A DNA stretch of 64,000 nucleotides from Thermoanaerobaculia bacterium (GCA_963846495.1 CAWJWP010000016.1:213879-277878), one strand, 5' to 3'; numbered from the stretch's first letter, positions 8,001 to 23,383 are shown. A program made the numbers and translations. Notes: generated by a model from the sequence alone, not told the origin.

Positions 8001-10815
8001 ATGCCCCGTCGTCTCGCGACCGCCGGCCCCCGACTGCTCCTCGCAGCCGCGTTGGCGGTCGCGGTGGCGTTGGTGGGCGCCGTCGACCTTTTCCGCAAGG
8101 TCGAAAGCTTCCGTCCGTTGGGCTTCACCGCCCACGCGCGCGCCGGAGCGTGGCGGGTCACCGCCGTCGACGACCCCGCGACCGGCCTCCAGGTGGGCGA
8201 CGCCATCGTGCTCATTGGCGGCGCCGACACCGGCAAGGGGACCGAGGTCCGCCAGCGCCTGCTCGCCGGCGACACGACCATGGTCACCGTCGTGCGCGGC
8301 AGCGAGCCGGTGGTCGTTCCGTATCAGCGGCCGTCGGTGCGCGTCGACTTCCTCTACCTGGCGCTCGCCGGCGCCGGCATCCTCTACCTGATCATCGGCC
8401 TCTACTCCCTGCTGCACGGCCGCCGCTCGCCGTCTGGGGTGTTCTTCCTCTGGGCGGTCGCCTCGGCGGCGGTCTACCTCTGTACGCGGGTGCCCGGCAT
8501 GCCGCTCGACGGGCTCGGCAAGGCGAGCTACGGCGTCGAGGAGCTCGGCCGCCTGCTACTGCCGCCGCTGACGCTCCATCTCTTCCTGATCTTCCCGGTG
8601 CCGGTGCTGCGCCGGCGCCTGCGGCGCTTGGTGCCGTTCCTCTACGTGCCCGCGGCGGCGCTCGTGACGCTGCAAGCGGACCTCGTCTTCAACCGCGGCC
8701 GCTGGTTCTTCGGCGGCCTGCGCAAGGAGTCGCTCGCCGCCTTCGACCGCTTGGAGCTCGGCCTCCTCGCCGTCTTCTCGCTCGCCGCCCTCGTCGCCCT
8801 CGTCTGGCAGCTGCGGCGACGGCACGGCTGGGAGCAGCGGCGGCAGCTGCAGTGGGTGGTGCTCGGCCTCGCCGGCGGCTACCTGCCGTTCATCGCCCTC
8901 TACGGCCTGCCGGCGCTGCTGCACCTGCAGCTGCCCGCTTGGACCGCGGCAGCCGCGGCCGCACCGCTGGTGCTGGTGCCGCTCACCTTCGCCTGGGCGC
9001 TGCTGCGCTTCCGGCTGTGGGACATGGAGCTCATCCTGCGCGGCGCCGTCTCCTACACCGCGACGCTGCTGCTCGGCGTGCTCTCGTTCTCGCTCCTCCA
9101 CCTCGCCATCACGCGCGGCCTGCCCGTGGAGCAGGGCCTGGCGCGGACGGCGCTCTCCTTCGTCTCCGGCCTCGCCATCGCGGCCGTGCTGGTGCCCGCC
9201 GAGCGGCGGGTGCGCTCGGGCATCGAGCGGCTGCAGCACCGCGGCACCTTCGCCCAGCGGCGGGCGCTGCGCGAGCTCGGCCGCGAGCTGCTCGAAGAGC
9301 GCGACCTGCCGCGGCTGTGCGAGCGCCTGCAGCAGCGGCTCTCGGAAGGGCTCGGCCTGCACGAGGTGGCGCTCTACCTCGCCGACGGCGAGCAGCTGCG
9401 GCTCGTCGCCAGCCTGAGCGACCTCGCTCATCACGATGAGGTTCCGGACGCCAGCGCGAGCCCGCCGCCGCCGGCCTTGATTCCCGCCGGCGAGCTCGCC
9501 GAGGTCTGGGGGCTGCAAGTGGCCCGGCTCGCCTCGGCCGGCCTTCCCGGCGTGGCGCCGCAAGGGCCTCGAGCGGCTCTACGCCGGCGGCTTCCGCTAC
9601 GCCTTCCCGCTCGTCGAGCCGCCGCCGCCCGGTCGCCCTCCTCCTCACCGCCGGCCGCCTCGACGGCGAGCCGCTCAACAGCGAGGAGCTCGACCTCCTG
9701 CGCGTGGTGCTCGACCAGACCGCGCTGGCGCTCGAGAACGCGCGACTGGTCGAGGAGCTGCGCAACCGCCTCGCCGAGGTCACCCGACTCAAGCAGGAGA
9801 GCGAGTCGATCCTCGAGTCCTCCCCCGCCGGCATCGTCGTCCTCGACGGCGAAGAGCGCGTCGTCTCCGCCAACGGCGCCTTCGCGCGCCTCGTCGGCCG
9901 CGGCCGCGAGCAGCTCCTCGGCAAGGACCTCGCCGACGTGCTGCCGGTCGAGCCGCTGCCCGGCCCCGGCGAGGCGCTGCGCGAGGTCTCCTACTGCGAG
10001 CCCGACGGCCGCGAGCGCCACCTCCAGCTCTCGCTCGCCGCCTGCGGCCGCGCCGCCGACGACCTGCGCGTGCTGGTCGTGCACGACGTCTCCGAACGGG
10101 TGGCGATGGAGAACCAGCTCAAGGAGAAGGACCGCCTCGCCGCCCTCGGCATGCTCGCCGCCGGCGTCGCCCACGAGGTGAACACGCCGATCACCGGCAT
10201 CTCGAGCTACGCCCAGATGCTGCTCGCCGAGACGCCGAGCGACGACCCGCGCTACGAGCTCCTGCGCAAGGTCGAGAAGCAAACCTTCCGCGCCGCCAAC
10301 ATCGTCAACGACCTGCTCGAGTTCGCGCGCGACAGGAAGCAGGAGCACCGCACGCTCGCCCTCGCCGGGGTCGTGCGGGACGCGCTCGAGTCGCTCGACG
10401 ACCGGCTGCGCCAAGCGCCGATCGAGCTGCTCTGGCAGCCGCCGTCCAATGGACCGATCGTGCGCGGCGGCGACCAGGAGCTGCAGCAGGTGTTCGTCAA
10501 CCTGATCGGCAACGCGGTCGACGCCATGGGCGAGCGCGGCGGCCGGCTCGAGCTGACGGTGACGAGCGAAGGCGACCGCGCCGTCGCCGCCGTCGCCGAC
10601 AGCGGCCCCGGCATCCCCAAGGCCGAGCAGGAGCGCGTCTTCCGGCCCTTCTACTCGACCAAGCTCGCCAGCGGCGGCACCGGCCTCGGCCTCTCGATCA
10701 GCTACCAGATCGTGCGCCGCCACGGCGGCGACCTGCGCGTCGAGAGCGAGCCCGGCCGCGGCAGCCGCTTCGTCGTCGAGCTGCCGCTCCTCGACGGCGA
10801 CGCCACCGGAGGCCT

Positions 10816-12192: not shown

Positions 12193-12349
12193 TCGCCCGT
12201 CTGCGTTCCGCCTCGCTGCCTGTTTCGCTACCCAGCTCGCAGCGTTCCTCGCTGCTCCGCTCGCCGGCGCTGCCACGACGCCGGCATCTGATCGCCTGCG
12301 CCGGCCGTCGCTAGACTCCCGCCGCGCAGTTTTGGGAGGTTCCGTTCGC

Positions 12350-14983
12350 ATGCGTTCCCGTAAGGCTCTGCTCGGCCTTTTGACGTTCGTCGTGGCGGCG
12401 CCGCTGTTGGCGCAGAATGCGCCGCCGGCGAGCCCGCCGCTCCTGGCGCCGCTCGCCGACGGGCAGGCGCTGGCGCTCCCCGCCGTCGATCCGGCGCTGC
12501 CCTCGCCGGCGGCATTCCTCGGTTATCCACTCGGCTCCCGCTTCACGCGCTACCCCGAGGTGCGCGCCTACCTCGACGCGCTCGACGCCGCCTCACCGCG
12601 GGTGACGATGTGGAAGCACGGCGAGACCTACGAGCACCGGCCGCTGCTGCTGGTCGCCATCTCGTCGGAGGCGAACATCGCCAAGCTCGACGCGCTGCGC
12701 TCCGACCGCGCGCGGCTCGACTACCCGCATCGGCTCACCGACGAAGGGCGGGCGCAGCTGCTGCGCGAGATGCCCGCCGTCGTCTGGCTCGCCTACGGCG
12801 TTCACGGCAACGAGTCCTCCTCCACCGAAGCGGCTATGGCGGCCGCGTACCTCCTCGCCGGCGCCCGCGGCGAAGGAGCGCCCGACCTCACGCGCACCAT
12901 CGTCATCATCGACCCGCTGTGCAATCCCGACGGCCGCGAGCGCTACGTCAACGGTTACCTGCAGCGGCGCGGCAGCGTCGCCAACCCCGACCCCTTCTCG
13001 CGCGAGCACGAGGAGCCGTGGCCCGGCGGCCGCGGCAACCACTACTACATCGACATGAACCGCGACTGGGCGTGGGCGACGCAGATCGAGACGCGGGCGC
13101 GCATCGCCGAGGTGACGGCGTGGGAGCCGCAGGTCTACGTCGACCTCCACGAGATGGGCGCCGAGTCGACCTACTTCTTCCCGCCCACCGCCGAGCCGGT
13201 GCACCCCGCCTTCGGCGCCGCCACCCGCCGCTGGCTCGACGCCTTCGGCCGCGCCAACGCCGCCGCCTTCGACCGCATGGGCTGGACCTACTTCGTCGGC
13301 GAGGACTACGACTTCTTCTACCCCGGCTACGGCGACACCTACCCGACGCTGCGCGGCGGCATCGGCATGACCTACGAGGTGGCCGGCGGCGGCCGCGCCG
13401 GCAGCCTGATCGAGCGCCGCGGGGCGGGGCCGTGGGGCCTCGCCGACCGCGTGGCGCGGCACCTCACGACGTCGCTCGCCACCGTCGCCACTGCGTCGGC
13501 GCAGGCGCCGCAACTGCTTGCCGACTTCGTCGAGGCGCGCATCGAGCAGGCGCGCGGCCGCGGCCGCACCTTCCTTTGGCGCGACGGCCAGGAAGCGGCG
13601 GAGATGGCGCGCCTGCTTCAGCTGCACGGCGTCAGCGTCGGCCGGCTCGCGCGCGGCGAAGAGGTGAAGGCCGCGCCCCTCGCCGGCGGCGAGCCGCGCG
13701 ACGTCCAGCTGCCCGCCGGCACCTGGGCGGTATCGACGGCGCAGCCCCTCGGCGAGCTGGTGCAGGTGCTGCTCGAGCGCGAGGCGCCGCTGCCGGCGGG
13801 CTACGTCGAGCGCCAGCGCGAGCGCGTCTCGGCGCACCTCGAGCCCGAGTTCTACGACGTCACCGCCTGGTCGCTGCCGCTCGCCTACAACCTCGACGCC
13901 TGGACGAGCGAGGACACGCCGGCGAGCCTCACCGCCGCCGCCGAGATGCCGCCCGCCGGCATCGCCGGCGAAGGGCGCGTCGGCTGGCTGCTCCCGCCGT
14001 CGGGGCTCGCCAGCTACCGCTTCGCTGCCGCGCTGCTCGCGCGCGACGTGCCGTTCCGCCTGGCGCTCGAGCCGCTGACGCTCGCCGGCCGCCAGCTCCC
14101 CGCCGGCACGCTCTTCGTGCCCCGCGCGGGCAAGGCCGGGCTCGAGGGCGTGCTGCAACCGCTCGCCGCCGAGCTCGGCGTGCAGCTGCTCGCCGCCGAG
14201 ACCTCGCTCACCGGCGGCATTCCGCTGGGCTCGAACCAGATGGTGGCGATCCGCAAGCCGCGCATCGGTCTCGTCGGCGGCCGCGGCGTCGGCTCGACGT
14301 CCTTCGGCGCGCTCTGGCACCTCCTCGATCAGCAGGTCGGCGCGCCGCACTCGGTGCTCGACCTCGAACGGCTCGACGGCGTCGACCTCTCGCGCTTCGA
14401 CGTTCTCGTCCTCCCCGACGGCGGCGGCTACCGCGGCACGCTCGGCGAGGACGGCGCCAAGCGCCTCGGCACCTGGGTGCGCGGCGGCGGCGTGCTGGTC
14501 GCCGAGGCCGGTCCCATCGACTGGCTGCACGAGCAGAAGCTCACCAGCGTCAAGCGGCACAAAGAGGAGTCGACGGACGAGGACGACGGCGAGGGCAGCG
14601 CGCCACCGCCGAGCGACGCCGAGAAGGTGTGGGACACCGAGCTCATGGTGCCCGGCGCCATCGTCGCCACCGACCTGCGCCGCCACGCGCTCACCGTCGG
14701 CGTCACCACGCCGCCTCCGGTGCTCTTCTGGGGCGACGCCTTCTACGACGCGACCGGCGACCCGCAGCAGGACCTGCTGCGCGCCAAGAGCCATGACCCG
14801 CTGATCGCCGGCATGGCGTGGCCGGAGGCGAAGCAGGTGCTGCCCGGCACGCTGCTCATGGGCGCGGATTCACTCGGCGACGGCAAGGTCGTGGTCTTCA
14901 CGCAGGACCCGGCGTTTCGCCTGTTCTGGCGCGGCACCATGCCTTTGCTGCTCGACGCAGTGCTCTACGGGCCGAGCCTGTAA
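12350..14983 (+). CDS. M14 family zinc carboxypeptidase with large C-terminal extension
   Basis: ATG 12350 is preceded by GGGAGG and followed by a signal peptide (MRSRKALLGLLTFVVAAPLLAQ). The M14 zinc motif is HGNESSS...DPLCNPDGRE. The C-terminal half contains a GATase1/DJ-1-like stretch (VLVLPDGGGY). Confidence 0.8.
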   Translation: MRSRKALLGLLTFVVAAPLLAQNAPPASPPLLAPLADGQALALPAVDPALPSPAAFLGYPLGSRFTRYPEVRAYLDALDAASPRVTMWKHGETYEHRPLLLVAISSEANIAKLDALRSDRARLDYPHRLTDEGRAQLLREMPAVVWLAYGVHGNESSSTEAAMAAAYLLAGARGEGAPDLTRTIVIIDPLCNPDGRERYVNGYLQRRGSVANPDPFSREHEEPWPGGRGNHYYIDMNRDWAWATQIETRARIAEVTAWEPQVYVDLHEMGAESTYFFPPTAEPVHPAFGAATRRWLDAFGRANAAAFDRMGWTYFVGEDYDFFYPGYGDTYPTLRGGIGMTYEVAGGGRAGSLIERRGAGPWGLADRVARHLTTSLATVATASAQAPQLLADFVEARIEQARGRGRTFLWRDGQEAAEMARLLQLHGVSVGRLARGEEVKAAPLAGGEPRDVQLPAGTWAVSTAQPLGELVQVLLEREAPLPAGYVERQRERVSAHLEPEFYDVTAWSLPLAYNLDAWTSEDTPASLTAAAEMPPAGIAGEGRVGWLLPPSGLASYRFAAALLARDVPFRLALEPLTLAGRQLPAGTLFVPRAGKAGLEGVLQPLAAELGVQLLAAETSLTGGIPLGSNQMVAIRKPRIGLVGGRGVGSTSFGALWHLLDQQVGAPHSVLDLERLDGVDLSRFDVLVLPDGGGYRGTLGEDGAKRLGTWVRGGGVLVAEAGPIDWLHEQKLTSVKRHKEESTDEDDGEGSAPPPSDAEKVWDTELMVPGAIVATDLRRHALTVGVTTPPPVLFWGDAFYDATGDPQQDLLRAKSHDPLIAGMAWPEAKQVLPGTLLMGADSLGDGKVVVFTQDPAFRLFWRGTMPLLLDAVLYGPSL

Positions 14984-15047: not shown

Positions 15048-18000
15048 CTACGCCGGCGGTGTTAGATCGACCGTGACGCCACCGAGCAGTTGCTGGAGGT
15101 CGGGCAACTGCACCGGCTTGACGAGCAGCTTGTCGAAGCCGACCTCTTCGAGGCGGCCGCCGTGCACCTGCTCGCCATAGCCGGTGACCGCCACCAACGT
15201 CACGCCGCGCGTCGCTTCGTCGGCGCGTAGCCGGCGGCCCACCTCGTAACCGTCGAGCCCCGGCAGCCCGATGTCGAGCAGCACCACCTCTGGCCGTTGC
15301 TCCGCCGCAGCCGCCAGACCGCTCGGGCCGTCGTGCGCGACCTCGACGCGATGGCCCCACAGGCGCAACAGCTCGGCGAGGCTCTCCGCGCCCTCGACGT
15401 TGTCGTCGACGACGAGCACGCGCCGCGAAGCCCCTGACTCCGCGCTCGCCGGCCGCTCCGCCGGCGCCACGCCCGCCGGCGCGCCCGCGGAAAGCGGCAG
15501 CAGCACCTCGAACTCGCTCCCCTTCCCTTCGCCTTCGCTGCGCGCCGTCACCCGGCCGCCGTGCATCTCCACCAGCTGGCGCACCAGCGTGAGCCCGATG
15601 CCGAGGCCGCCCTGCGAGCGGTCGAGCGCCTGCTCCGACTGCATGAAGAGGTCGAAGACGCGGCCGAGCAGCTCCGGTGGCAGGCCGATGCCGTCGTCGC
15701 GCACGCGCAGCAGCGCGCACTGGCCGCGGCGCTCGACGCGCACCGTCACGTGGCCGCCCGACGGCGTGTACTTGTTGGCGTTGGCGAGCAGGTTGGCGAT
15801 CACCTGGTCGAGACGCGTCGCGTCGGCGCGCACCGGCAGCACCTCGCGCGGCACCTCGAGGCGCAGCTCCTGCCCGCGCTCGACGAAGCGCGGGCGGAGA
15901 TTGTCGACCGCGTGCGTTACCGCCGACACGAAGTCGAGCGGCGCGAGCCGCAGCTCGATGCGACCGCGGGTGATGCGCGCCACGTCGAGGAGGTCGTCCA
16001 CCAGCCGCACGATATGGCCGACCTGGCGTTCCATCACCGAGAGCGCGCGCTCGGCGACTTCGCGGTCGTCGCCGGCGAGGCGCAGCAGCTGGAGCGACGT
16101 CGCCACCGGCGACAGCGGGTTGCGCAGCTCGTGGGCGAGCATGGCGAGGAACTCGTCCTTCCGCCGATCGGCCTCGCGCAGCTCGGCGTAAAGCGCCGCG
16201 TTGTCGAGCGCCAGCGCGGCGCGGCGGGCCAGCTCGTCGGCGAGGCCCATCGCCTGGAGGTCGAAGCGCTCGGCGCCGGTGCGCACCAGCACCAGCGCGC
16301 CGAGCGTCTTGCCGCGCGCACGCAGCGGCAGCACCAGCACGCTCGTGCCGCCGACCTCGCGCAACAGCTCGCCGAGGCGGTCGCCGCGGTTGGCCGTCCA
16401 GTCGCGCGGATCGTCGAGCAGCAGCGGCTGGTCGAGCGTTGCGGCATCGACGAGCAGCGGCGCCTCGCCGCCACCCGCGGCGGCGATCTCGCGCAGCCGC
16501 CGCTCCTCCTCCACCGTTCGGTGCGCCACCGCCAGCCGCGGCGGCGCGTTGGGGACGTCGAGCAGCGCCAGCGACCAGTCGGCGAGGCCGGGCACGCTGC
16601 CGCGGGCGATGCGCTCGAGCGTCGTCTGCGGCTCGAGCGACGATGCCAGCGCGCTGCCCGCCTCGGCGAGCAGGCGCAGCGCCCACTCGGCGCGCCGGCG
16701 CTCCGCCACCTCCAGCTGCAAGTCTCGGTTCAACGCGGCGAGCTCGGTCGAGCGCTCGGAGAGCGCGGCGCTCGTCGTCGTCAGCTCGTGGAAGCGCTCC
16801 TCGAGCGCGCGCGCCGTGCGGCGGAAGTTGCGCGCCAGCGAGTCCACCTCGGCGACGCGGCTGCGCGGCCACGCCGGCAGCTCGCCGGACGCCAGCCGCT
16901 CGGGCAGGCCGGTCGTCGCCTCGGCGAGGCGGGCGAGCGGCCGCGCCAGCAGGCCCGACACCGCCGCCGACGCGAGCAGGGCCAACAGGCAGACACCGAG
17001 CATGGCGGCGAACGCGGTGAGGTAGCGCTCCTGCAGGAACTGCTGCAGCGGCAGGAGCGGCAGCTCGACGCGCAGATGCCACGGCGGCGCGCCGAACGCC
17101 AGCTCGCGGCCGTAGACCGAGCCGCGCCAGCGGTTGATCGCCGGCTGCGCCAAGCTCTCGGCGAAGCGCTGGTAGCGGCCGCCGGCGAGGCGTTGCAGGT
17201 CGCCTTCGACGCGGTAGGTCTGCAGCGGCAGCACGTCAGGCATCGTCGAGGCGATGACGACGCCGTGATCGTCGGTCAAGGTGAGCTGCGCCGCGCGCGT
17301 CGGCGCGTAGAGCGCCAGCAGACTGCGCAGCTGCTTGAGGTCGAGGGCGCCCACCGCGAAGCCGATAGCGCTTCCGTCGTGCAGCACCGGCGCGGCGATC
17401 GCCACCACCGGCTCGCGCCGCCCCAACGGCCCGCGATAGACGTCGGTGAGCACCGGCCGCAGGCTCTGCCGCGCTGCGGTGAGCCACGGCCGCTCACCCA
17501 CTCGCAGGCCGGCCTGCGAACGGCCCTCGGGGTCGAGGCGCGGCGACACCGCCACCACCCGGCCGTCGGCGTCGGCGAGGTAGACGCTCGCAAGCTCGGG
17601 GAAGATGCGCTGCACGAGCTCGACCTCCGGCTGCAACGCCGCGAGCGGTGCGCCGCTGTCGGCCGCGCCTTTCGCCAGCTCGACGACGGCGCCCAGGTGA
17701 CGGTCGCGCCAGTTGTCGATGCGGCTCGCCAGACTGTCGGCCGTCTGATCGAGCTGCGCCAGCAGGTCGCCTTCGAGCTTGCGCAGGTCCTGCCGCGTCG
17801 ACAGCACGACGAGCACGAGCAGCGGCACCAGCACCGCCGCCACCAACAGCTCGAAGATCATCTGCCGCAGCGGCACCGTCTCGCGCTCTGCCGCGCCGGC
17901 GAGCGTGTGGATGCGCGTGTGGGTGAGCAGCAAGCTGGCGACGAGCGCGTTGCCGATGCCGTTGACGCTCTGCTTGAGCATCACCAGCACCGTCGCCGCC

Positions 18001-18437
18001 GTGCCGCTCTCCATCACCGTGCCGTAGAAGAGCGCCACCAGCGGCATGCCGAGCAGCAGCCAGAAGAGCCCGTCGGCGAGCAGCACGTTCTGCTTGAGGC
18101 GCGGCGCCAGCATGCCGACGACGAGCGCCTCGACGGTGAAGATCACCGCCGCCCACGGGTGCCCCCACAGGAAGTAGGTGTAGCTCGCCGCCACCGCTGC
18201 CGCGGCCGTTCCCCACAGCGGGCCGTAGAGCCGCACCGCCAGCAGCGCGAAGATGCTGCCGAAGAGGAACTCGAGACCGAAGAAGAGCGGAGTGGCGAAG
18301 TAGTTGCCGGCGAAGGCGGCGAGGGTCAGCGCGACGTAGACGGGCAGGCTCCGGCCGCTGAGCGGGGTGGCGGGAGCTGCTTGCCGCTCAGCAGTCGGCG
18401 CCCGTCCAATCCTCTCCGGCGCGCGCTGCGGCTCCAC
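15048..18437 (-). CDS. Hybrid sensor histidine kinase (multi-TM N-terminus, periplasmic sensor, HAMP, GAF, HisKA, HATPase_c, C-terminal receiver)
   Basis: H-box LAHELRNPLSP, ATP-binding G-boxes (DDGIGLP...GGLGIGLT) and a C-terminal receiver domain (VLVVDDNVEGAESLAELL...LLDIGLPGLDG). Confidence 0.85.
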   Translation of the reverse strand: MEPQRAPERIGRAPTAERQAAPATPLSGRSLPVYVALTLAAFAGNYFATPLFFGLEFLFGSIFALLAVRLYGPLWGTAAAAVAASYTYFLWGHPWAAVIFTVEALVVGMLAPRLKQNVLLADGLFWLLLGMPLVALFYGTVMESGTAATVLVMLKQSVNGIGNALVASLLLTHTRIHTLAGAAERETVPLRQMIFELLVAAVLVPLLVLVVLSTRQDLRKLEGDLLAQLDQTADSLASRIDNWRDRHLGAVVELAKGAADSGAPLAALQPEVELVQRIFPELASVYLADADGRVVAVSPRLDPEGRSQAGLRVGERPWLTAARQSLRPVLTDVYRGPLGRREPVVAIAAPVLHDGSAIGFAVGALDLKQLRSLLALYAPTRAAQLTLTDDHGVVIASTMPDVLPLQTYRVEGDLQRLAGGRYQRFAESLAQPAINRWRGSVYGRELAFGAPPWHLRVELPLLPLQQFLQERYLTAFAAMLGVCLLALLASAAVSGLLARPLARLAEATTGLPERLASGELPAWPRSRVAEVDSLARNFRRTARALEERFHELTTTSAALSERSTELAALNRDLQLEVAERRRAEWALRLLAEAGSALASSLEPQTTLERIARGSVPGLADWSLALLDVPNAPPRLAVAHRTVEEERRLREIAAAGGGEAPLLVDAATLDQPLLLDDPRDWTANRGDRLGELLREVGGTSVLVLPLRARGKTLGALVLVRTGAERFDLQAMGLADELARRAALALDNAALYAELREADRRKDEFLAMLAHELRNPLSPVATSLQLLRLAGDDREVAERALSVMERQVGHIVRLVDDLLDVARITRGRIELRLAPLDFVSAVTHAVDNLRPRFVERGQELRLEVPREVLPVRADATRLDQVIANLLANANKYTPSGGHVTVRVERRGQCALLRVRDDGIGLPPELLGRVFDLFMQSEQALDRSQGGLGIGLTLVRQLVEMHGGRVTARSEGEGKGSEFEVLLPLSAGAPAGVAPAERPASAESGASRRVLVVDDNVEGAESLAELLRLWGHRVEVAHDGPSGLAAAAEQRPEVVLLDIGLPGLDGYEVGRRLRADEATRGVTLVAVTGYGEQVHGGRLEEVGFDKLLVKPVQLPDLQQLLGGVTVDLTPPA

Positions 18438-18541
18438 CGTGAGAATGCTAGCAGTCGGTTCGGGCGTGACGCGCCTGCTGCTTCACATCCGCGAACCACG
18501 CCGCCGCGCGAGCAGCGCGGCGGCGCGATGGTTCCGCTCGC

Positions 18542-21487
18542 TCAGCCGTCCTGGCCGATGGCAGCGAGCACGCGCTGGCGGTCGTACGAGCTGCTGATGT
18601 GCGCCACGGCGCGCTGGAAGGCGGTGGCGAGCTCGCCTTCGATCTGCCCGGCACCGGCGACGGTGACGAGCAGCTCCGCGAGGTCGTAGTCGGAGCTGAA
18701 CGCGTCGGCGCTGGCGAGCAGACGCCGCACGTCCTCCTCCGGCAGCGGCCGCCGCATCGCCGCCTTCTGCAGCGTGCGGCGGCGGTCGTAGTCGGAGCTC
18801 ATGCCGCGCGCGAGGGTGAAGAACGACTCGCCGAGCGCCTTGCCGCGCGGCCAGCGCGTCGCCAGCAGGGTGAGCAGCTCGGCGCGGTCGTAGTCGGAGC
18901 TGATGCCGCGCGCGCAGGTGAGCGCACGCTCGGCCGTCGACGGCTCCTTCGCCGCCTCCACCACCTTCGACAGCGTGCGCCGCAGGTCGTAGTCGGAGTC
19001 GATGGCGGCGCACGCCTCGCCGAAGCTCGCCCCGGTGACCGCCGACGCACCGCGCGCGTCGACGGCGGCGATCAGCAGCTCGGTGAGGTCGTAGTCGGAC
19101 TCGATGCTGCGCGCCCCGAGCGCGACGATGCGCTCGACCTGCGCCGCGTCGGGCTTCGCCTGTTGGAGCAGCTCGACCGAGTAGACGCGCTGCACGTAGT
19201 CGGAACGGATGAGGCGCATCTCGGCGAGCACCGCGTCGACGCCGCCGCGGGCGAGGATGCGGCCGACGCGTCCCTTGGCGTCGATGCCGGTCTCGCGGAA
19301 GAGCTCGGGCAGCATGCGGCCGAGCCACGCGCGCGCCGAGTCGTCGAACGGGCGCGGCTCGCCGTCGAGCTCGAAGGTGACTTCCGGCGCGCCGCCGGCG
19401 CCCGGCTTGGCGATCAGCTCGCGCTCGTGCCCGCCGCGGCGCTCGAGAATGCGCAGCCGCCCGCCCGGCGAGACGCGCGTGATGTTGCGCTCGTCGGCGG
19501 AGAAGGCGACGTCGCCCTCGATGTCGAGGTCGAGGCGGCAGCGCCCTTCGCGCACGCGGATCGTCCAGGTGTGGTCGTCGTCGACGTTGATGCTGGCCGA
19601 GCGGCTCTTCGACTCGCCCGAGCTGCATGACGGGTCGTCGAAGGTGAAGCCGCCGGCCGGCGCCGGCGGGGCCGGCGGCGCGGGGGGAGCTGGCGGTGCC
19701 GGAGGCGCCGGCGGCGCAGCGGCAGCGGCGCGCACGCGGGGTGCCGGCGGCGACGGCGGCGAGGGCGGGGACGGTGGCGATGGAGGCGAGGGCGGAGAGG
19801 GCGGCGCGGGCGTCCAGTCGGAGGAGCGGGCCGCGCGCGGAGCCGTCGCCGCTCGCGGCGCCACCACGGCGACGGCGGGCGTGGCCGTCCTCGGTGCGGC
19901 GGCGGCGACCTCTGCGATCGCGGCCACCGGTGCCACGACCGCGACCGCTCCGGTGGCCGTCGTCGTGCCGCGATCGACGGCGCCCGCGGCGGGCTCGGCG
20001 ATCGCCGCCATCGCAGCCGGCGAGCTGGGCTCCGCCGCCACGGCGACACTCGCCTCCGTGGCCACGCTCTCTTCGGCGAAGGCCGCGACGACCGGCTCGG
20101 TCGTTGCGCCCGGCGGCGCCGGCAGCACGTCACCTTCGATGGGGGCGGCATCGGGAGCTGGTTCCGTGGCGGCCGCGAGCGCCGGCTCCACTTCCTCCGG
20201 CCGCGCGCCCGCCGCGGCAAGCGGCAGCACTACAGCGGCGGCGACGAGCAACACGACCGCTGCGGCGGCGCGCCCGAGTGGCCGCCGGTCGCGCGCCTCG
20301 TCGAGGATGGCGGCGATGCGGCTCGACAGCTGCGGCCGCCGCGCCATCGGCAGGGTGAGCGCCGGCGACGGCAGCGCCGCGCGCAGCGCACGCGCCACCT
20401 CGAGCAGGTGCCCGGCGTAGAGCGACGGCCGCGAGCCGGCGAGCAGCACGAGGTCGTCGCAGGCGTGCTCGGCCTCGGCGCGCAGCCGCCGCGCGGCGAT
20501 CCAGGCGAGCGGATCGAACCAGTGCAGCACGCAGGCGAGGTGCGAGAGGTTGAGCGCCAGCGCGTCGGCGCGCCGCACATGAGCGAGCTCGTGCAGCAGC
20601 ACGCTGCGGCGCTGCGCCAGCGGCCACCGCGCCGCGCTCGCCGGCAGCAGCACGACCGGCCGCCGCACGCCCCACGTCATCGGCACCTCGGTCTCGCGGC
20701 TGGCGAGCAGCGCGACCGGGCGATGCAGCTCGAGCCGCGTGGCGCACTCGGCGGCGAGCTGTTGCCAGTCGGCGGGCAGCGGACGCGCACCGGCGCGCAG
20801 GCGGCGGCGGCGCAGCAGCGCCGCACCGAGGCGGGCGAGGGCGAGCAGGGCACCGAGCGCCCAGACGGCGGCGAGGGTCCAGCTCGGGAGCGCGATTCTC
20901 GACGGCGACGAGGTGGAAGCCCATGGCGCGGGACTCGCCAGCTCCGCAGCGGCAGGCAATCGGCGGCGGTCAGCGCCGACGCGGCGCGCGCCGCGTCGCG
21001 TCTCGGCTGCACCGGCGGCGTCGGTGAGGATCGCGGTCTCCCGCGCCGTCGCCGTGTCGTCCTCTTGATGCCCGCGAAGGCAACAGCGCGCGTGGTCTCG
21101 CTCGCAGCCGGCGCAACGTCGCGCTCGCGATCGGCTCGTCGCGAGGGCTGACGGCAATGCAGTCGCGGTGGGCGCTTCCATCGCCGGCTGACCAGCTATA
21201 GCCGCGACCTCGCCTGCGCTCGGCGCCGCGGGCGTAATCGCGGCCAGCAGCTCCGCCGCCGGCGCGGGCAGCGGCACTCGCCACGCAGCCGGCAGCCGCT
21301 CGGCCGCCGGCAGCAGCAGCGTGCCGAGGAGCGCGCTGCTCCACAGCAGGTGGCGCACGGCCGGGCTGCGCCGATGCAGCGCCAAGTCGGCGGCACCGGC
21401 GAGCAGCAGCAATGCCGCGCCCTTCCACGCCCAAACCGGGAGCGACTCGAGGAGCAGGCGGACGAGCGTGTCGGCGTTCATTGTCAC
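18542..21487 (-). CDS. BlaR1/MecR1-like M56 peptidase signal transducer with proline-rich linker and a 7x SDYD-repeat C-terminal domain
   Basis: The N-terminus is BlaR1-like and TM-rich. The zinc-protease motif LLHELAHVRRAD is present. A (SPP)6 and (APP)5 linker follows, then seven ~33-aa repeats with the motif xSDYD(L/R)xxLL. There is no penicillin-binding sensor domain. Confidence 0.8.
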   Translation of the reverse strand: MTMNADTLVRLLLESLPVWAWKGAALLLLAGAADLALHRRSPAVRHLLWSSALLGTLLLPAAERLPAAWRVPLPAPAAELLAAITPAAPSAGEVAAIAGQPAMEAPTATALPSALATSRSRARRCAGCERDHARCCLRGHQEDDTATARETAILTDAAGAAETRRGARRVGADRRRLPAAAELASPAPWASTSSPSRIALPSWTLAAVWALGALLALARLGAALLRRRRLRAGARPLPADWQQLAAECATRLELHRPVALLASRETEVPMTWGVRRPVVLLPASAARWPLAQRRSVLLHELAHVRRADALALNLSHLACVLHWFDPLAWIAARRLRAEAEHACDDLVLLAGSRPSLYAGHLLEVARALRAALPSPALTLPMARRPQLSSRIAAILDEARDRRPLGRAAAAVVLLVAAAVVLPLAAAGARPEEVEPALAAATEPAPDAAPIEGDVLPAPPGATTEPVVAAFAEESVATEASVAVAAEPSSPAAMAAIAEPAAGAVDRGTTTATGAVAVVAPVAAIAEVAAAAPRTATPAVAVVAPRAATAPRAARSSDWTPAPPSPPSPPSPPSPPSPPSPPAPRVRAAAAAPPAPPAPPAPPAPPAPPAPAGGFTFDDPSCSSGESKSRSASINVDDDHTWTIRVREGRCRLDLDIEGDVAFSADERNITRVSPGGRLRILERRGGHERELIAKPGAGGAPEVTFELDGEPRPFDDSARAWLGRMLPELFRETGIDAKGRVGRILARGGVDAVLAEMRLIRSDYVQRVYSVELLQQAKPDAAQVERIVALGARSIESDYDLTELLIAAVDARGASAVTGASFGEACAAIDSDYDLRRTLSKVVEAAKEPSTAERALTCARGISSDYDRAELLTLLATRWPRGKALGESFFTLARGMSSDYDRRRTLQKAAMRRPLPEEDVRRLLASADAFSSDYDLAELLVTVAGAGQIEGELATAFQRAVAHISSSYDRQRVLAAIGQDG

Positions 21488-21873
21488 TTCCCCTTCAGCT
21501 GGGCGTCGGCGACGAGCGCCGAGAGGCGCTCGAGCTCGGCGTCGTCGAGGCGGTCGGATTCGAGGTCGAGCAGGGCGGCGACGGTGTCGGTCACCGAGCC
21601 GGCGAAGAAGGTCCCCACCAGGCGCTGCAGCGCCGTGCGCCGTGCGCGGTCGCGCGGCACCGTGGGCGAGAAGACGTAGCGCGGGCCGTCCTGCCGGTGG
21701 CGCAGGTGACCTTTTTCCTCCAGCACGCGCAGCAGCGCCCGCACGGCCGAGTAGCTGGGCGGGTCGGCCAGCTCGCCGTGCACCTCGGCCGCCGTGGCAC
21801 TCCCCTTGCGGTAGACGATCTCCATGATCTGGCGCTCACGCCGGCTGAGCTGGGCTTCGTCCTTCCTTGCCAT
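21484..21873 (-). CDS. blaI: BlaI/MecI/CopY family transcriptional repressor
   Basis: ATG 21873 is preceded by GAGGTGA. The winged-helix region (LSRRERQIMEIVYRKGSATAAEVHGEL...SAVRALLRVLEEKGHL) and C-terminal dimerisation helix are recognisable. The stop overlaps the M56 gene start by 4 nt. Confidence 0.85.
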   Translation of the reverse strand: MARKDEAQLSRRERQIMEIVYRKGSATAAEVHGELADPPSYSAVRALLRVLEEKGHLRHRQDGPRYVFSPTVPRDRARRTALQRLVGTFFAGSVTDTVAALLDLESDRLDDAELERLSALVADAQLKGK

Positions 21874-21922
21874 CTTCACCTCTCGGGCTTGTACGCTCTC
21901 GTGGCTTCGAGGTTGCACTGCG

Positions 21923-21954
21923 ATGCTAGAAAAACAGCATGCTGAATTTTTAGC
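21923..21954. promoter_or_regulatory. AT-rich near-palindrome TGCTAGAAAAACAGCATGCTGAATTTTTAGCA, candidate BlaI operator and promoter
   Basis: A 32-bp imperfect inverted repeat (26/32 symmetric) with a perfect core CAGCATGCTG, about 50 bp upstream of the blaI ATG. It is a conspicuous AT-rich island in a GC-rich genome. Confidence 0.5.
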
Positions 21955-23383
21955 ACCTCGGTCCGGTTTGTCAAGGGGTGGCGCGGCGAATGGGGCCGCG
22001 GCCGGCGCGGCCGTCCTGCTCGGGGTCCTGACGCTCGCCGGGTGCGCCACGCGCGGACCGCAACCGCCCCGGCGCGGCGAGCAGGTGCCGGTGCCGACGC
22101 CGACGCCAGTCGCGCCCGCTCCCACGCCGACGCCGACTCCGACCCCGCCGCCTCGCCTCGTGCTGGCGGACAGCTCGTGGCAGGAGTTGCCGGGCTGGGA
22201 CAAGGACTCCGCGGCTGCCGCGCTGCCCGCGCTCCAGCGCTCGTGCGAAGTGTGGCGCAACCGCGACGCCGCGACGACGCTCGGCGAGCAGGGCGTCGCA
22301 GGCACCGTCGCCGATTGGCTGCCGCTTTGCGATCGCGTCGCTGCGCTCGCGGCCGCGCCATCTACCACCACCGCCTCCACCGATGCCACCGCCGGAGCCG
22401 CCAGCACCGCGACCGCCACGACTACTGCCGCCGACAGAGATGGCGCCCTGCGCGCCGCCTTCGCCGACCTGCTGCGGCCAGTCGCTGTCTCCAACCGCGG
22501 CGACGTCGACGGTCTCTTCACCGGCTACTACGAGCCGACGCTGCGCGGCAGCCGCGTCGAGGGCGGCGAGTTCACCGTGCCGCTCTACGTGCGGCCGCCC
22601 GAGCTGGTGAGCGTCGAGCTCGGCCGCTTCCGTCCCGACCTGAAGGGCAAACGCATCGCCGGCCGCGTCGAGGACGGCGCCCTCGTGCCGTACCACGACC
22701 GCACCGCCATCGACGAAGGCGCGCTCGCGGGACGCGAGCTCGAGCTGGTTTGGGTGGACGATCCCGTCGACGCCTTCTTCCTCGAGATCCAGGGCTCCGG
22801 CCGCATCCAGCTCCCCGACGGCAGCGAGATGCGCGTCGGCTACGCCGGCCAGAACGGCTTCCCCTACTCCGCCATCGGCCGTGAGCTGATCAAGCGCGGC
22901 GCGCTGACCAAAGAGCAGATGTCGATGGACGCCATCCGCGATTGGCTGTCGGCGAACCTGAGTACCAACCCGGAGGAGGCGCGCGAGGTGATGCGGACGA
23001 ACGCGTCGTACATCTTCTTCCGCGAGATCCCCGGCGAGGGACCGGTGGGCTCGCTGGGCGTGGCGCTCACCCCCGAGCGCTCGCTTGCCGTCGACCCGCT
23101 CTTCGTCCCGCTCGGCGTGCCGGTGTGGATCGACACCACGTTGCCGGTCGGCGCCCCCGGCGGCCCACGTCCGTTGCAGCGCCTGCTCGTCGCCCAGGAC
23201 ACCGGCGGCGCCATCACCGGCCCGGTGCGCGGCGACGTCTTCTGGGGGCACGGCGAGGACGCCGCGAAGACGGCAGGCAGCATGCGCCAGCCCGGCCGCC
23301 TCTGGATCCTGCTGCCCAAGACCGTCGAGCTGCCGCCGGCGCTCACCACGCTCGAGGAGCCGCCCCCGGAGCCGTCAGGTTAG
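21923..23383 (+). CDS. mltA: Membrane-bound lytic murein transglycosylase A (MltA family) lipoprotein
   Basis: Lipobox LTLAGC, then MltA and 3D domains (…GYYEPTLRGSR…VPYHDRTAIDEGAL…FFLEIQGSGRI…). The start is uncertain: ATG 21923 overlaps the operator palindrome, and TTG 21968 is an alternative. The annotated 21824 extension is spurious. Confidence 0.8.
   Translation: MLEKQHAEFLAPRSGLSRGGAANGAAAGAAVLLGVLTLAGCATRGPQPPRRGEQVPVPTPTPVAPAPTPTPTPTPPPRLVLADSSWQELPGWDKDSAAAALPALQRSCEVWRNRDAATTLGEQGVAGTVADWLPLCDRVAALAAAPSTTTASTDATAGAASTATATTTAADRDGALRAAFADLLRPVAVSNRGDVDGLFTGYYEPTLRGSRVEGGEFTVPLYVRPPELVSVELGRFRPDLKGKRIAGRVEDGALVPYHDRTAIDEGALAGRELELVWVDDPVDAFFLEIQGSGRIQLPDGSEMRVGYAGQNGFPYSAIGRELIKRGALTKEQMSMDAIRDWLSANLSTNPEEAREVMRTNASYIFFREIPGEGPVGSLGVALTPERSLAVDPLFVPLGVPVWIDTTLPVGAPGGPRPLQRLLVAQDTGGAITGPVRGDVFWGHGEDAAKTAGSMRQPGRLWILLPKTVELPPALTTLEEPPPEPSG

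What the first reader, a model, noticed from the sequence alone, without database searches (positions are those of the whole stretch)
18542..21873. BlaI/BlaR1-type pair in which the M56 transducer carries a (SPP)n/(APP)n linker and a sevenfold 'SDYD' repeat domain instead of a penicillin-binding sensor
The M56 protein has the BlaR1 N-terminal TM region and an intact HELAHVRRAD zinc-protease motif, and its gene start overlaps the BlaI stop as in a classical operon. Its C-terminal half is a Pro-rich spacer (SPPSPPSPPSPPSPPSPP … APPAPPAPPAPPAPP) followed by seven ~33-aa repeats with the invariant motif (I/M/F)-x-SDYD-(L/R)-x-x-LL. This looks like a helical repeat array, and I could not assign it to a known sensor domain. 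M56/BlaI modules are widely re-used as generic signal-regulated anti-repressor switches in Acidobacteria-like genomes. Here the input domain appears to be an uncharacterised repeat type, so the ligand and regulon are unknown. The divergent mltA gene and blaI itself are the obvious first targets.
Basis: partly seen in the sequence, partly recalled or inferred. Interest (0 to 1): 0.65.

Follow-up and report, generated by a model that had tools for sequence, protein, structure and literature searches.

The report
BlaI/M56 switch with unnamed periplasmic sensor
This is a repressor-plus-membrane-protease gene switch of the kind that controls penicillin resistance in staphylococci, but its outward-facing sensor is a large, widespread and so far unnamed protein domain, so what it detects is unknown.

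Summary
blaI (21484-21873, -) and an intact 981-aa M56 protease gene (18542-21487, -) overlap by GTGA. The protease carries HELAH/ExxxD, an (SPP)6...(APP)6 linker and seven S[DS]Y[DV] motifs spaced 33-35 residues apart.

The C-terminal 369 residues match no Pfam, NCBIfam or PDB entry. They are not local drift: a profile search finds 4972 cluster representatives. In 80 genome loci the domain is almost always fused to M56, with blaI directly upstream.

The Ser of each motif sits at a helix N-cap. The family consensus is S-D-Y-E, a capping box, so the motif is probably structural. A conserved Cys pair and signal peptides on free-standing homologues place the domain in the periplasm.

The reported "palindrome" is two tandem TGCTR-N6-YAGCA dyads over the -10 of the blaI promoter. 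These dyads are conserved across the family and occur nowhere else in the window.

Best reading: an autoregulated BlaR1-type proteolytic switch with a new sensor-domain family. The ligand is unknown and mltA is only a possible local target. It is a new variant of a known kind, of moderate interest.

The parts
21484..21873 (-). blaI: 129-aa BlaI/MecI/CopY-family winged-helix repressor with no Cys, so not a CopY-type metal sensor
   Evidence: Pfam Penicillinase_R, E 1.6e-26, profile positions 1-114 of 115. Sequence. CopY/TcrY NCBIfam scores 47 bits against a cutoff of 122.
18542..21487 (-). M56 (BlaR1-type) membrane metalloprotease gene, 981 aa, with its stop at 18542-18544. Its GTG start overlaps the blaI stop (GTGA).
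   Evidence: Full-length alignment with three Thermoanaerobaculia orthologues at 61-67% identity.
21299..21487 (-). Residues 1-63: TM1, a short basic loop (HRRSPAVRH) and TM2 of the M56 chassis
   Evidence: Sequence. Conserved in orthologues. Loop 38-46 has 3 basic and 0 acidic residues. These two helices fall below the hydropathy threshold I used, and Pfam did not align this part of the M56 profile in the window protein, so they are assigned from sequence and orthologue conservation only.
20882..21298 (-). Residues 64-202: long, poorly conserved low-complexity loop L2, extracytoplasmic by analogy with BlaR1
   Evidence: Variable among the four orthologues. Topology is inferred.
20273..20881 (-). 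Residues 203-405: TM3 plus the cytoplasmic gluzincin domain. HELAH is at 20579-20593 and ExxxD at 20456-20470.
   Evidence: Pfam M56 at residues 204-394. Hydropathy peak at 198-225 followed by a 6:1 basic flank. HExxH and ExxxD are intact in 176 of 177 fused homologues.
20210..20272 (-). Residues 406-426: TM4
   Evidence: Strongest hydropathy peak, 2.67, at 407-425. The flank after it is acidic, 1 basic to 7 acidic.
19652..20209 (-). Residues 427-612: Ala/Pro/Val-rich linker. The (xPP)n tracts (APP+(SPP)6, then (APP)6) are encoded at 19658-19810.
   Evidence: Composition is 60 Ala and 46 Pro in 186 residues. TRF finds a period-9 array at 19651-19812. The tracts are conserved in the four Thermoanaerobaculia orthologues. 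They are not a family feature: only 8 of 53 fused homologues have a P-rich run of 12 or more residues.
19340..19651 (-). Residues 613-716: beta-meander subdomain with a conserved Cys pair. The codons are C621 at 19625-19627 and C650 at 19538-19540.
19217..19339 (-). Residues 717-757: two long junction helices that carry most of the best-conserved non-repeat residues (W721, R731, G734, R740, G749, E756). Y769, in the first solenoid helix, belongs to the same conserved set.
   Evidence: AF2 helices 104-121 and 125-145. R740 and G749 are 99% conserved and W721 97% in 270 homologues.
18545..19216 (-). Residues 758-981: alpha-solenoid of seven 34-residue helix-hairpin repeats. The S[DS]Y[DV] motif codons lie at 19193-19204, 19088-19099, 18986-18997, 18887-18898, 18785-18796, 18683-18694 and 18581-18592.
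21940..21955 (-). Operator dyad 1, TGCTAAAAATTCAGCA. It overlaps the -10 of the blaI promoter.
   Evidence: Exact match to TGCTR-N6-YAGCA. PWM score 29.1 bits against a next-best of -0.5 in the window. Conserved upstream of blaI across the family.
21924..21939 (-). Operator dyad 2, TGCTGTTTTTCTAGCA, directly abutting dyad 1
   Evidence: PWM score 22.5 bits. Tandem dyads are found in 50 of 64 blaI upstream regions.
21946..21974 (-). Sigma-70-type promoter of blaI-M56: TTGACA (21974-21969), a 16-17 nt spacer, and TAAAAA/AAAAAT (21952-21946)
   Evidence: It is the only promoter-like hit in 18300-22200, against 0.0 expected from shuffles. TTGAC lies 17-20 nt before dyad 1 in 35 of the 59 relatives that have at least one exact dyad.
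21968..23383 (+). Divergent mltA (lytic murein transglycosylase A, lipoprotein). It is a possible lineage-specific co-regulated target, not a conserved part of the module.
   Evidence: Pfam MltA, E 1e-62, plus the 3D domain. The start is either TTG 21968 or ATG 21923, so the dyads lie in its leader or its first codons. It is adjacent only in the window, L001 and L002.

Best explanation
This is an autoregulated two-gene BlaI/BlaR1-type regulated-proteolysis switch from a Thermoanaerobaculia-like acidobacterium.

Repression. BlaI binds two abutting TGCTR-N6-YAGCA dyads that cover the -10 and start region of its own TTGACA-N16/17 promoter. This represses blaI-M56. In this lineage it probably also represses the divergent mltA.

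The protease. The M56 protein is a 4-TM gluzincin with a cytoplasmic HELAH/ExxxD active site. After TM4, a long Ala/Pro linker with two polyproline-type (xPP)6 tracts holds a 369-residue domain out in the periplasm. That domain belongs to a large, unnamed family. It consists of a beta-meander sheet (probably stapled by a C621-C650 disulfide), two strongly conserved junction helices, and an alpha-solenoid of seven 34-residue helix hairpins.

The motif. The 'SDYD' signature (family consensus S-D-Y-E) is the N-capping box of the first helix of each hairpin. It is a fold-defining motif comparable to TPLH in ankyrin repeats, not a ligand site.

Signalling (inferred). I infer that the solenoid and beta platform bind an extended extracytoplasmic macromolecule, most likely a protein or peptide partner and alternatively an envelope glycan. 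Occupancy or release would be relayed through TM4 to activate the M56 protease. The protease would then cleave BlaI and derepress the operon.

Shown here: gene identities, intact catalytic motifs, the fold prediction, family size, the conserved fusion with M56 and blaI, and the conserved operator.

Inferred: topology, the disulfide, BlaI cleavage, ligand class, and mltA control.
For: M56 and BlaI domains score above Pfam cutoffs, and the genes have overlapping start and stop.

HExxH plus ExxxD are intact in 176 of 177 fused homologues.

The domain family is real and large: 4972 representatives at E<=1e-3 and 2202 at E<=1e-30.

In 80 genome loci from Thermoanaerobaculia, Gemmatimonadota, Steroidobacteraceae and Lysobacterales it is fused to M56 in about 70. 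blaI lies -28 to +5 nt upstream in nearly all. No other neighbour is conserved.

AF2 models are confident, with pLDDT 94.7 / pTM 0.90 for the whole domain and 92.6 for the beta subdomain. Every motif Ser sits at a helix N-cap. The consensus motif is S-D-Y-E, with E at 75%.

Periplasmic location is supported by four observations. The positive-inside charge pattern fits around TM3 and TM4. About 20 free-standing homologues have signal peptides or lipoboxes. The Cys pair is conserved. Canonical BlaR1 has the same topology (PMC9834060).

Tandem dyads are exact in 59 of 64 blaI upstream regions, and 119 of 120 exact matches in 861 kb lie in the operon's upstream control region, directly before blaI or, in L081, before the free-standing homologue that precedes blaI. 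They overlap the predicted -10. They are unique in the window.

The literature shows that M56 proteins without a penicillin-binding domain are the majority and that 96% lie near a BlaI gene (PMC13492132).
Against: No experiment exists on any family member. BlaI cleavage by this M56 protease is assumed from S. aureus and B. licheniformis.

Nothing identifies the ligand. The fold matches only generic solenoids and generic beta-meanders.

The most conserved repeat residues are explained structurally, so they give no functional clue.

No target gene other than the operon itself is conserved.

No sigma-70-like promoter was found for mltA, and mltA is absent from the orthologous locus L004.

The same operator type serves BlaI partners of M56 proteins with other C-termini. 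The operator therefore says nothing specific about this sensor.

TM1 and TM2 fall below my hydropathy threshold, so the 4-TM topology rests on homology.
Confidence: 0.7

Rival explanations
1. Envelope-glycan or peptidoglycan sensor. The solenoid binds a cell-wall or exopolysaccharide polymer, or its turnover products. The switch would then form a feedback loop with the divergent lytic transglycosylase MltA. The chassis is the same as in the best explanation; only the ligand class differs.
For: mltA is divergent and shares the 94-bp control region that holds both dyads. Periplasmic helical-repeat domains can bind polysaccharide, for example the PgaA TPR domain binding PNAG (PMC9384988). Other atypical BlaIR systems control envelope hydrolases, as CenIR controls Cwp6 (PMC13492132). 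A peptidoglycan fragment participates in B. licheniformis BlaI inactivation (PMC3305447). The long polyproline linker could reach the sacculus.
Against: mltA adjacency is limited to the window, L001 and L002, and is absent from L004 and from all Gemmatimonadota loci. There is no carbohydrate-binding or LysM/SPOR/PG-binding signature. No promoter for mltA was detected.
Confidence: 0.2
2. Cation or metal sensor. The ladder of invariant Asp/Glu (and Tyr) at the start of every repeat would form a row of acidic sites that bind Ca2+, another metal, or a polycationic molecule. This would echo the metal-sensing CopY branch of the BlaI family.
For: S-D-Y-[DE] is more than 80-95% conserved at each of seven positions in 270 homologues. 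BlaI is a weak relative of CopY/TcrY.
Against: The motif Ser sits exactly at the N-cap of each helix, and S-x-x-E is the classical capping box (established helix-capping knowledge). Tyr is replaced by E, T, D or M in homologous solenoids such as the L081 M56 protein, P0185 and P0169. There is no His- or Cys-rich site. This BlaI has no Cys, and CopY NCBIfam scores 47 bits against a cutoff of 122.
Confidence: 0.07
3. Not a ligand receptor. The C-terminal domain would be a periplasmic docking or spacer module. It could anchor the protease to an envelope structure. It could instead be an inhibitory domain removed by periplasmic proteases under stress, as in site-1 cleavage of anti-sigma factors. 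The signal would then be loss or tension of the domain, not binding of a diffusible ligand.
For: Repeat number varies from about 4 to 12 among homologues, as in scaffolds. The linker is long and extended. In one lineage a secreted free-standing copy is encoded first in the operon with blaI and an M56 protein that has a homologous solenoid. This suggests protein-protein docking between family members.
Against: The non-repeat junction residues are strongly conserved: R740 and G749 at 99%, W721 at 97%. This points to a specific functional site. Nothing tested here distinguishes this rival from the best explanation.
Confidence: 0.15
4. Local low-complexity drift or a decaying gene. On this view the C-terminal half has no function.
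For: The linker (427-612) and loop L2 (64-202) are low-complexity and poorly conserved.
Against: The 369-residue domain is conserved at 61-74% identity in orthologues and about 30-40% across phyla. It has thousands of homologues. It folds confidently. The ORF is intact.
Confidence: 0.01

Closest known systems
BlaR1/MecR1-BlaI/MecI of Staphylococcus aureus and Bacillus licheniformis
   Same: Both have a membrane M56 gluzincin with HExxH/ExxxD between TM3 and TM4 and an extracytoplasmic C-terminal input domain after TM4. Both have an adjacent BlaI-family repressor. Both have an autoregulated operon with two dyad operators in a short divergent control region (PMC9834060).
   Different: The input domain here is not a class-D beta-lactamase-like penicillin-binding domain. 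There is no PF00905 hit, and blaR1_generic scores 82 bits against a cutoff of 400. The half-sites are TGCTA/TAGCA with a 6-nt AT-rich spacer, not TACA/TGTA (the family operator is given as TACANNTGTA in PMC7253601). Gene order is blaI then M56. The host is diderm, and the linker is about 185 residues.
Atypical BlaIR systems without a beta-lactam sensor: CenIR (C. difficile), PvmSR (P. aeruginosa), and mycobacterial BlaIR
   Same: These are M56 plus BlaI pairs whose input is not a beta-lactam and is unknown. They are recognised as the majority class of M56 proteins (PMC13492132; bioRxiv 10.64898/2026.08.03.742534).
   Different: Those sensors have short, largely disordered or absent C-terminal regions. 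This one has a 369-residue, confidently folded two-part domain that forms its own large family.
M56-TonB_C and M56-HEAT-like fusions in the same phyla
   Same: They share the same BlaI clade, the same tandem TGCTR-N6-YAGCA operator and the same M56 chassis, with only the periplasmic C-terminus exchanged. TonB_C is the second most common M56 architecture (PMC13492132). A Pro-rich periplasm-spanning spacer recalls TonB (my own knowledge).
   Different: The C-terminal fold and sequence family differ. Only 3 of 35 M56 proteins found through the operator carry the SDYD domain.
Pfam DUF4476 (PF14771, function unknown)
   Same: One distant free-standing family member with SSDEEK/SSDEER repeats (P0185) scores 28.8 bits against a cutoff of 22.5. 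This suggests a remote repeat-level relationship.
   Different: The window protein gives no DUF4476 hit even at E<=1. Only 1 of 41 aligned homologues reaches E 0.03. DUF4476 itself has no known function, and neither of the two papers that mention it concerns bacterial proteins.
Generic alpha-solenoid repeats (TPR, HEAT/ARM, Sel1, designed helical repeats)

Membership tests
BlaR1/MecR1 beta-lactam sensor-transducers | Peptidase M56 domain with an HExxH zinc site | tested here: met
   PF05569 scores 110 bits against a cutoff of 31. HELAH is at 299-303 and ExxxD at 340-344.
BlaR1/MecR1 beta-lactam sensor-transducers | C-terminal extracellular penicillin-binding (transpeptidase / class-D beta-lactamase-like) domain | tested here: not met
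   There is no PF00905 or other hit in residues 427-981 at E<=1. NCBIfam blaR1_generic scores 82 bits against a cutoff of 400 and aligns only model positions 105-326.
BlaR1/MecR1 beta-lactam sensor-transducers | Adjacent BlaI/MecI repressor gene in the same operon | tested here: met
   Penicillinase_R scores 93 bits against a cutoff of 22.6, with a GTGA start/stop overlap.
BlaIR-family regulated-proteolysis systems in the broad sense (M56 + BlaI, any sensor) | M56 protease and BlaI repressor encoded together, conserved across relatives | tested here: met
   blaI lies -28 to +5 nt upstream of the fused M56 gene in nearly all of about 70 loci.
BlaIR-family regulated-proteolysis systems in the broad sense (M56 + BlaI, any sensor) | Dyad operator(s) overlapping the operon promoter (autoregulation) | tested here: met
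   This is comparative evidence only. Tandem TGCTR-N6-YAGCA dyads lie over the -10, are exact in 59 of 64 upstream regions, and account for 119 of 120 matches in 861 kb.
BlaIR-family regulated-proteolysis systems in the broad sense (M56 + BlaI, any sensor) | Signal-dependent cleavage of BlaI by the M56 domain | not testable with these tools
   This needs biochemistry or genetics. The only support here is conservation of the catalytic motifs.
BlaIR-family regulated-proteolysis systems in the broad sense (M56 + BlaI, any sensor) | Four-TM topology with a cytoplasmic protease loop and an extracytoplasmic C-terminus | tested here: inconclusive
   TM3 and TM4 and their charge flanks are clear. TM1 and TM2 are below the threshold. 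The Cys pair and the signal peptides of free-standing homologues support a periplasmic C-domain.
CopY/TcrY copper repressors | Equivalog-level similarity and a C-terminal Cys-rich metal site | tested here: not met
   TIGR02698 scores 47 bits against a cutoff of 122. The 129-aa protein contains no cysteine.
TPR / HEAT / Sel1 repeat families | Match to the family profile | tested here: not met
   No such Pfam hit exists for the window protein at E<=1. Among 41 homologues at E<=0.1, a single HEAT_GCN1 hit at E 0.028 is noise. The similarity is structural only.
Pfam DUF4476 | Score above the gathering threshold | tested here: not met
   The window protein has no hit. Only the distant member P0185 passes, at 28.8 against 22.5 bits.

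The most novel reading that the evidence does not exclude
The beta-meander + S-D-x-E solenoid would be a dedicated periplasmic receptor family for M56 proteases that works either in cis or in trans. In cis it is fused, as here. In trans it is a secreted copy encoded first in the operon, pairing with an M56 protein that keeps only the solenoid, as in L081, L204 and L205. That would be a ligand-capture or co-sensor mechanism not described for any BlaR-type protease. In the Thermoanaerobaculia lineage the signal would come from cell-wall turnover and feed back on MltA.
Probability: 0.15. Interest if true: 0.65.

Novelty: new variant of a known kind. Interest (0 to 1): 0.45.

Why it matters
BlaI/M56 pairs are now recognised as a very common bacterial signalling chassis, yet for most of them the input is unknown (PMC13492132). 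This locus falls in the "M56 plus no identifiable domain" class described in PMC13492132.

The work here resolves that unannotated part into a concrete, confidently folded domain family. The family has thousands of members in the soil phyla Gemmatimonadota and Acidobacteriota and in Xanthomonadales-like Proteobacteria.

It also provides a sharply defined operator, tandem TGCTR-N6-YAGCA, that can be used to read out regulons from complete genomes.

Together these make the question "what do non-beta-lactam BlaR proteins sense?" testable for one large class. There are defined domain boundaries for expression, candidate functional residues (W721, R731, R740, G749, E756), a predicted disulfide, and a natural split version suitable for interaction tests. 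It does not change the known logic of the system.

Tried and rejected
Known-family assignment of the C-terminal domain:
- Pfam and NCBIfam found nothing for the window protein or for homologues.
- A PDB sequence profile search gave only noise at E>0.4.
- Foldseek against PDB gave nothing at E<=1e-3.
- The AFDB Foldseek library was unavailable.
- A link to DUF4476 was considered. I rejected it as membership because only one distant member passes.
- A TerB or DnaJ link, suggested by a JGI name and a 20.8-bit hit, is below threshold.

Conserved gene neighbours or regulon:
- None exists beyond blaI.
- mltA is adjacent in three loci only.
- The window holds no further operator, by pattern search or by PWM.

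Other tests:
- Specificity of the operator to this sensor type is rejected. Most M56 partners found through the operator have other C-termini.
- The Pro-rich linker as a family feature is rejected. It is lineage-specific.
- A possible fifth TM helix at residues 513-531 (hydropathy 2.0) is rejected. It contains Pro and Glu and is not conserved in orthologues.
- A frameshift in the odd Arg/Cys-rich loop 100-200 has no support. The region is simply variable in all orthologues.
- The first related-loci run with the diverse alignment failed because it had no conserved stretch. I repeated it with close homologues.
- The exact M56 sequence is not in the protein collection, and the contig that encodes blaI could not be retrieved. 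The source organism is therefore inferred only from the nearest relatives, which are Thermoanaerobaculia MAGs.
- A literature search found no description of this domain.

Full report
1. WHAT IS IN THE SEQUENCE

The window is about 72-75% G+C. On the minus strand, ORF 21484..21873 encodes a 129-aa protein that matches Pfam Penicillinase_R over its whole length (E 1.6e-26). ORF 18542..21487 encodes a 981-aa protein that matches Peptidase_M56 at residues 204-394 (E 1.4e-31). The M56 GTG start and the blaI TGA stop share GTGA.

The protease has HELAH at 299-303 and ExxxD at 340-344. After a strongly hydrophobic segment at 407-425 comes a 186-residue linker with 60 Ala and 46 Pro. The linker contains APP-(SPP)6 at 561-581 and (APP)6 at 591-608. 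At DNA level this is a period-9 tandem array at 19651-19812.

Seven S[DS]Y[DV] motifs follow, at residues 762, 797, 831, 864, 898, 932 and 966.

2. THE C-TERMINAL DOMAIN IS A REAL, LARGE, UNNAMED FAMILY

Residues 613-981 have no Pfam or NCBIfam match even at E<=1. A profile of the family finds no PDB chain by sequence, with a best E of 0.47.

A word-indexed search found 45 homologues, down to about 30% identity. An exhaustive HMM search of 1.84 billion cluster representatives found 4972 at E<=1e-3 and 2202 at E<=1e-30.

A scan of one genome per species gave 134 confirmed loci. The 80 retained come from several groups. The nearest are Thermoanaerobaculia, with L001 at 74% identity in the domain and 67% over the full protein. 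The majority are Gemmatimonadota. There are a few Steroidobacteraceae and Lysobacterales.

In these loci the domain is fused to an M56 domain in about 70 of 80. Most of the exceptions are cut by contig ends. A blaI homologue ends -28 to +5 nt before the fused gene in nearly all.

Of the 190 proteins retrieved, 111 carry M56 plus the domain. The rest are fragments or free-standing proteins, about 20 of which have a signal peptide or lipobox. No other signalling output domain was found attached.

HExxH and ExxxD are intact in 176 of 177 evaluable fusions. No gene other than blaI is conserved next to the fusion: the best cluster covers 18 of 80 loci, which is lineage synteny.

3. STRUCTURE

AlphaFold2 with the 41-sequence alignment gives mean pLDDT 94.7 and pTM 0.90. 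The model has three parts:
- a beta-rich part, at domain residues 17-100, which are protein residues 629-712;
- two long helices at 716-757;
- a stack of short helix pairs running to the C-terminus.

The beta part modelled alone is also confident, with pLDDT 92.6.

In the model every motif Ser is the residue just before a helix. The Ser residues are at domain positions 150/185/219/252/286/320/354, and the helices start at 151/186/220/253/287/321/355.

Across 270 homologues the motif is S (92-99% in repeats 2-7) - D (84-98% in repeats 1-6) - Y/F/H - E (about 75%) or D (about 19%). S-x-x-E is the classical helix capping box (established knowledge). In homologous solenoids the Tyr position is E, T, D or M. 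The motif is thus best read as the fold signature of the repeat, like TPLH in ankyrin repeats, and not as a ligand site.

The period is 34 residues in 1260 of about 1540 spacings. Two repeat types alternate...IxSDYELAELL... and ...IxSDYExRRxL..., with 652 alternating against 41 same-type neighbours. P0014 differs from its relative P0015 by exactly one 68-residue insertion. The evolutionary unit is therefore a double repeat.

The best-conserved non-repeat residues are W721, R731, G734, R740 (99%), G749 (99%), E756 and Y769. They lie in or just after the junction helices between the sheet and the solenoid. They are the best candidates for a functional site.

4. LOCATION

Four observations point to a periplasmic domain:
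- The charge distribution fits a cytoplasmic protease loop and an extracytoplasmic C-terminus. There are 6 basic and 1 acidic residues after TM3, and 1 basic and 7 acidic after TM4.
- Free-standing homologues begin with signal peptides or lipoboxes.
- A Cys pair is conserved: C621 and C650, 24-36 residues apart. It is present in all 157 evaluable sequences that have the second Cys. This suggests a disulfide.
- S. aureus BlaR1 has the same arrangement (PMC9834060).

TM1 and TM2 are weakly hydrophobic and were not detected at my threshold. An Ala/Val stretch at 513-531 scores as hydrophobic but is not conserved in orthologues. The topology is therefore inferred, not shown.

The (xPP)n tracts are conserved in the four Thermoanaerobaculia orthologues, with SPP and APP interchanging. 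They are not a family feature: the median linker is 84 residues, and only 8 of 53 fusions have a long Pro-rich run.

5. CONTROL REGION

On the minus strand a TTGACA lies at 21974-21969. It is followed after 16-17 nt by TAAAAA/AAAAAT at 21952-21946. This is the only sigma-70-like site in 18300-22200, where shuffles give about 0.

The same arrangement recurs upstream of blaI throughout the family. The exact pattern TGCTR-N6-YAGCA is present in 59 of 64 upstream regions and at least twice in 50. Dyad starts are 16 nt apart in the close relatives and 19 or 21 nt apart in Gemmatimonadota. TTGAC lies 17-20 nt before the first dyad in 35 of the 59 that have one. In 861 kb of fetched loci, 119 of 120 exact matches lie in the operon's upstream control region.

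A PWM built from these sites scores the two window dyads at 29.1 and 22.5 bits, and the next best position in the 64 kb at -0.5. This is strong comparative evidence for BlaI autoregulation by promoter occlusion. The half-site differs from the TACA/TGTA type reported for this repressor family (PMC7253601).

A metagenome scan for the double dyad showed that it is not specific to this sensor. Most hits in high-GC contigs lie upstream of blaI-M56 pairs, but only 3 of 35 of those M56 proteins carry the SDYD domain. The others end in TonB_C-like or HEAT-like regions. The chassis of BlaI, operator and M56 is thus generic, and the periplasmic module is exchangeable. This agrees with the survey in PMC13492132: about 15,000 M56 proteins in 254 architectures, with 'no identifiable domain' the commonest, the penicillin-binding type only about 6%, and 96% near a BlaI gene.

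6. POSSIBLE TARGETS

The divergent gene is a lytic transglycosylase with Pfam MltA (E 1e-62) plus the 3D domain. It has a lipoprotein-like N-terminus. Whether it starts at TTG 21968 or ATG 21923, the dyads lie in its leader or its first codons. BlaI binding would therefore be expected to interfere with its expression, but this is inference.

No sigma-70-like promoter was found for it. It is adjacent only in the window, L001 and L002, and is absent from the otherwise syntenic L004. I regard mltA as a plausible lineage-specific target only.

7. A SPLIT VERSION

In one lineage (L081, L204, L205, L206) a secreted 389-397-aa protein consisting of the beta part plus the solenoid is encoded immediately upstream of blaI, with start and stop abutting in L204-L206. 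An M56 gene follows blaI in L081 and L204; in L205 and L206 the short contigs show no M56 gene. In L081 the two dyads lie just upstream of this first gene, at 7953 and 7972, with the gene starting at 8001.

The M56 protein in that operon has its own C-terminal solenoid with M[TS]SDxE repeats and no beta part. That solenoid is homologous to the SDYD solenoid, with hhalign probability 99.1% and E 5e-19. This ties the domain functionally to M56 signalling. It also raises the possibility of interaction between family members in trans.

8. MECHANISM, WITH STATUS OF EACH STEP

(i) BlaI represses its own operon through two dyads over the -10. This is supported by comparative genomics, not by experiment.
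(ii) The M56 protein is an active membrane protease. This is supported by conserved catalytic motifs.
(iii) Residues 613-981 are periplasmic. This is inferred from four concordant lines.
(iv) The domain binds an extended macromolecular ligand along the solenoid or junction. This is inference from the fold class. I favour a protein or peptide partner, then an envelope glycan or peptidoglycan.
(v) Binding activates cleavage of BlaI. This is assumed by homology with BlaR1/MecR1.

Rivals, with their evidence, are given in the structured fields: a glycan/PG sensor, a cation sensor, a docking or removable inhibitory domain, and drift.

9. COMPARISON AND NOVELTY

The locus works like a BlaIR system and passes the tests for the broad M56+BlaI family. 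It fails the defining test for BlaR1/MecR1 proper, because it has no penicillin-binding domain and blaR1_generic scores 82 bits against a cutoff of 400. It is not CopY-like, because it has no Cys and scores 47 bits against a cutoff of 122.

The sensor domain is not TPR, HEAT or Sel1 by profile. Only a distant SSDEEK-type relative touches Pfam DUF4476, which itself has no known function.

I found no paper that describes this domain. My rating is a new variant of a known kind: a known signalling chassis with an undescribed sensor-domain family that is widespread in the sequence collections searched.

Interest is moderate, at 0.45. It would not surprise a specialist that an M56 protein has an unknown sensor. 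The value lies in the size and coherence of the family, the defined operator and the natural split form, which together make the input question experimentally tractable.

Noticed in passing
window 15048-18437 (-): A 1129-aa hybrid sensor kinase (5TMR-LYT, dCache_1, GAF, HisKA, HATPase_c, receiver) lies 104 nt downstream of the M56 stop on the same strand. No terminator-like site was found between them. It is syntenic in L001 and L003 but absent from L002 and L004, so it is probably not part of the module.
   Followed up: partly
L100, L111, L143, L149, L154, L157 (TonB_C-like C-termini); L108, L126, L135, L158 (HEAT-like C-termini): The same tandem TGCTR-N6-YAGCA operator precedes blaI-M56 pairs whose M56 proteins carry quite different periplasmic C-termini. 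How cross-talk between such paralogous pairs in one genome is avoided is unexplained.
   Followed up: partly
L126 10714-10750; L092 1179-1215; L115 7132-7166; L141 108-143; L158 1012-1046: Some double dyads are not upstream of blaI. They precede other genes, which are candidate regulon members of this BlaI clade. Examples are a 520-aa secreted HEAT-like protein right after a blaI-M56(HEAT-type) operon in L126, a secreted HEAT-like protein in L092, and a GNAT-like gene paired with a divergent secreted protein in L115.
   Followed up: partly
L081 8001-11595; L204 3156-6062; L205 3410-4983; L206 2455-4028: This is a split arrangement. A secreted free-standing beta+solenoid protein is encoded first, then blaI. 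In L081 and L204 an M56 gene follows; the L081 M56 protein has a homologous S-D-x-E solenoid without the beta part. In L205 and L206 the short contigs show no M56 gene after blaI.
   Followed up: partly
L203 2643-6062: In an Acidobacteriota-like contig, a free-standing 480-aa family member (P0014) sits directly after a LiaF-like membrane protein and a SpoIIE/PP2C phosphatase, with no BlaI or M56 nearby. This hints that the domain may also serve another signalling route.
   Followed up: no
P0185, P0169 (free-standing proteins from the representative search): These variants have about 13 repeats reading SSDEEK/SSDEER instead of SDYE. P0185 passes the Pfam DUF4476 gathering score (28.8 against 22.5 bits) and weakly touches TerB. 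This is a possible remote link between this family and DUF4476.
   Followed up: partly
window 20882-21298 (-), residues 64-202 of the M56 protein: The loop between TM2 and TM3 is unusually long, about 140 aa. In the window copy it is Arg- and Cys-rich (…SRSRARRCAGCERDHARCCLRGH…). It is almost unalignable among the four orthologues. No frameshift is evident.
   Followed up: partly
window 12332-14983 (+): An 883-aa ORF has a Peptidase_M14 (zinc carboxypeptidase) domain. It is syntenic with L001, L002 and L004. Overlapping long ORFs on the opposite strand make the true coding strand worth checking.
   Followed up: no
L013, L017, L030, L041, L042, L047, L059, L067 (1-3 kb upstream of the main blaI, opposite strand): Several Gemmatimonadota loci carry a second, divergent BlaI/M56 pair near the SDYD-type pair. 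That pair has no TGCTR-N6-YAGCA dyad, so it presumably uses a different operator.
   Followed up: no
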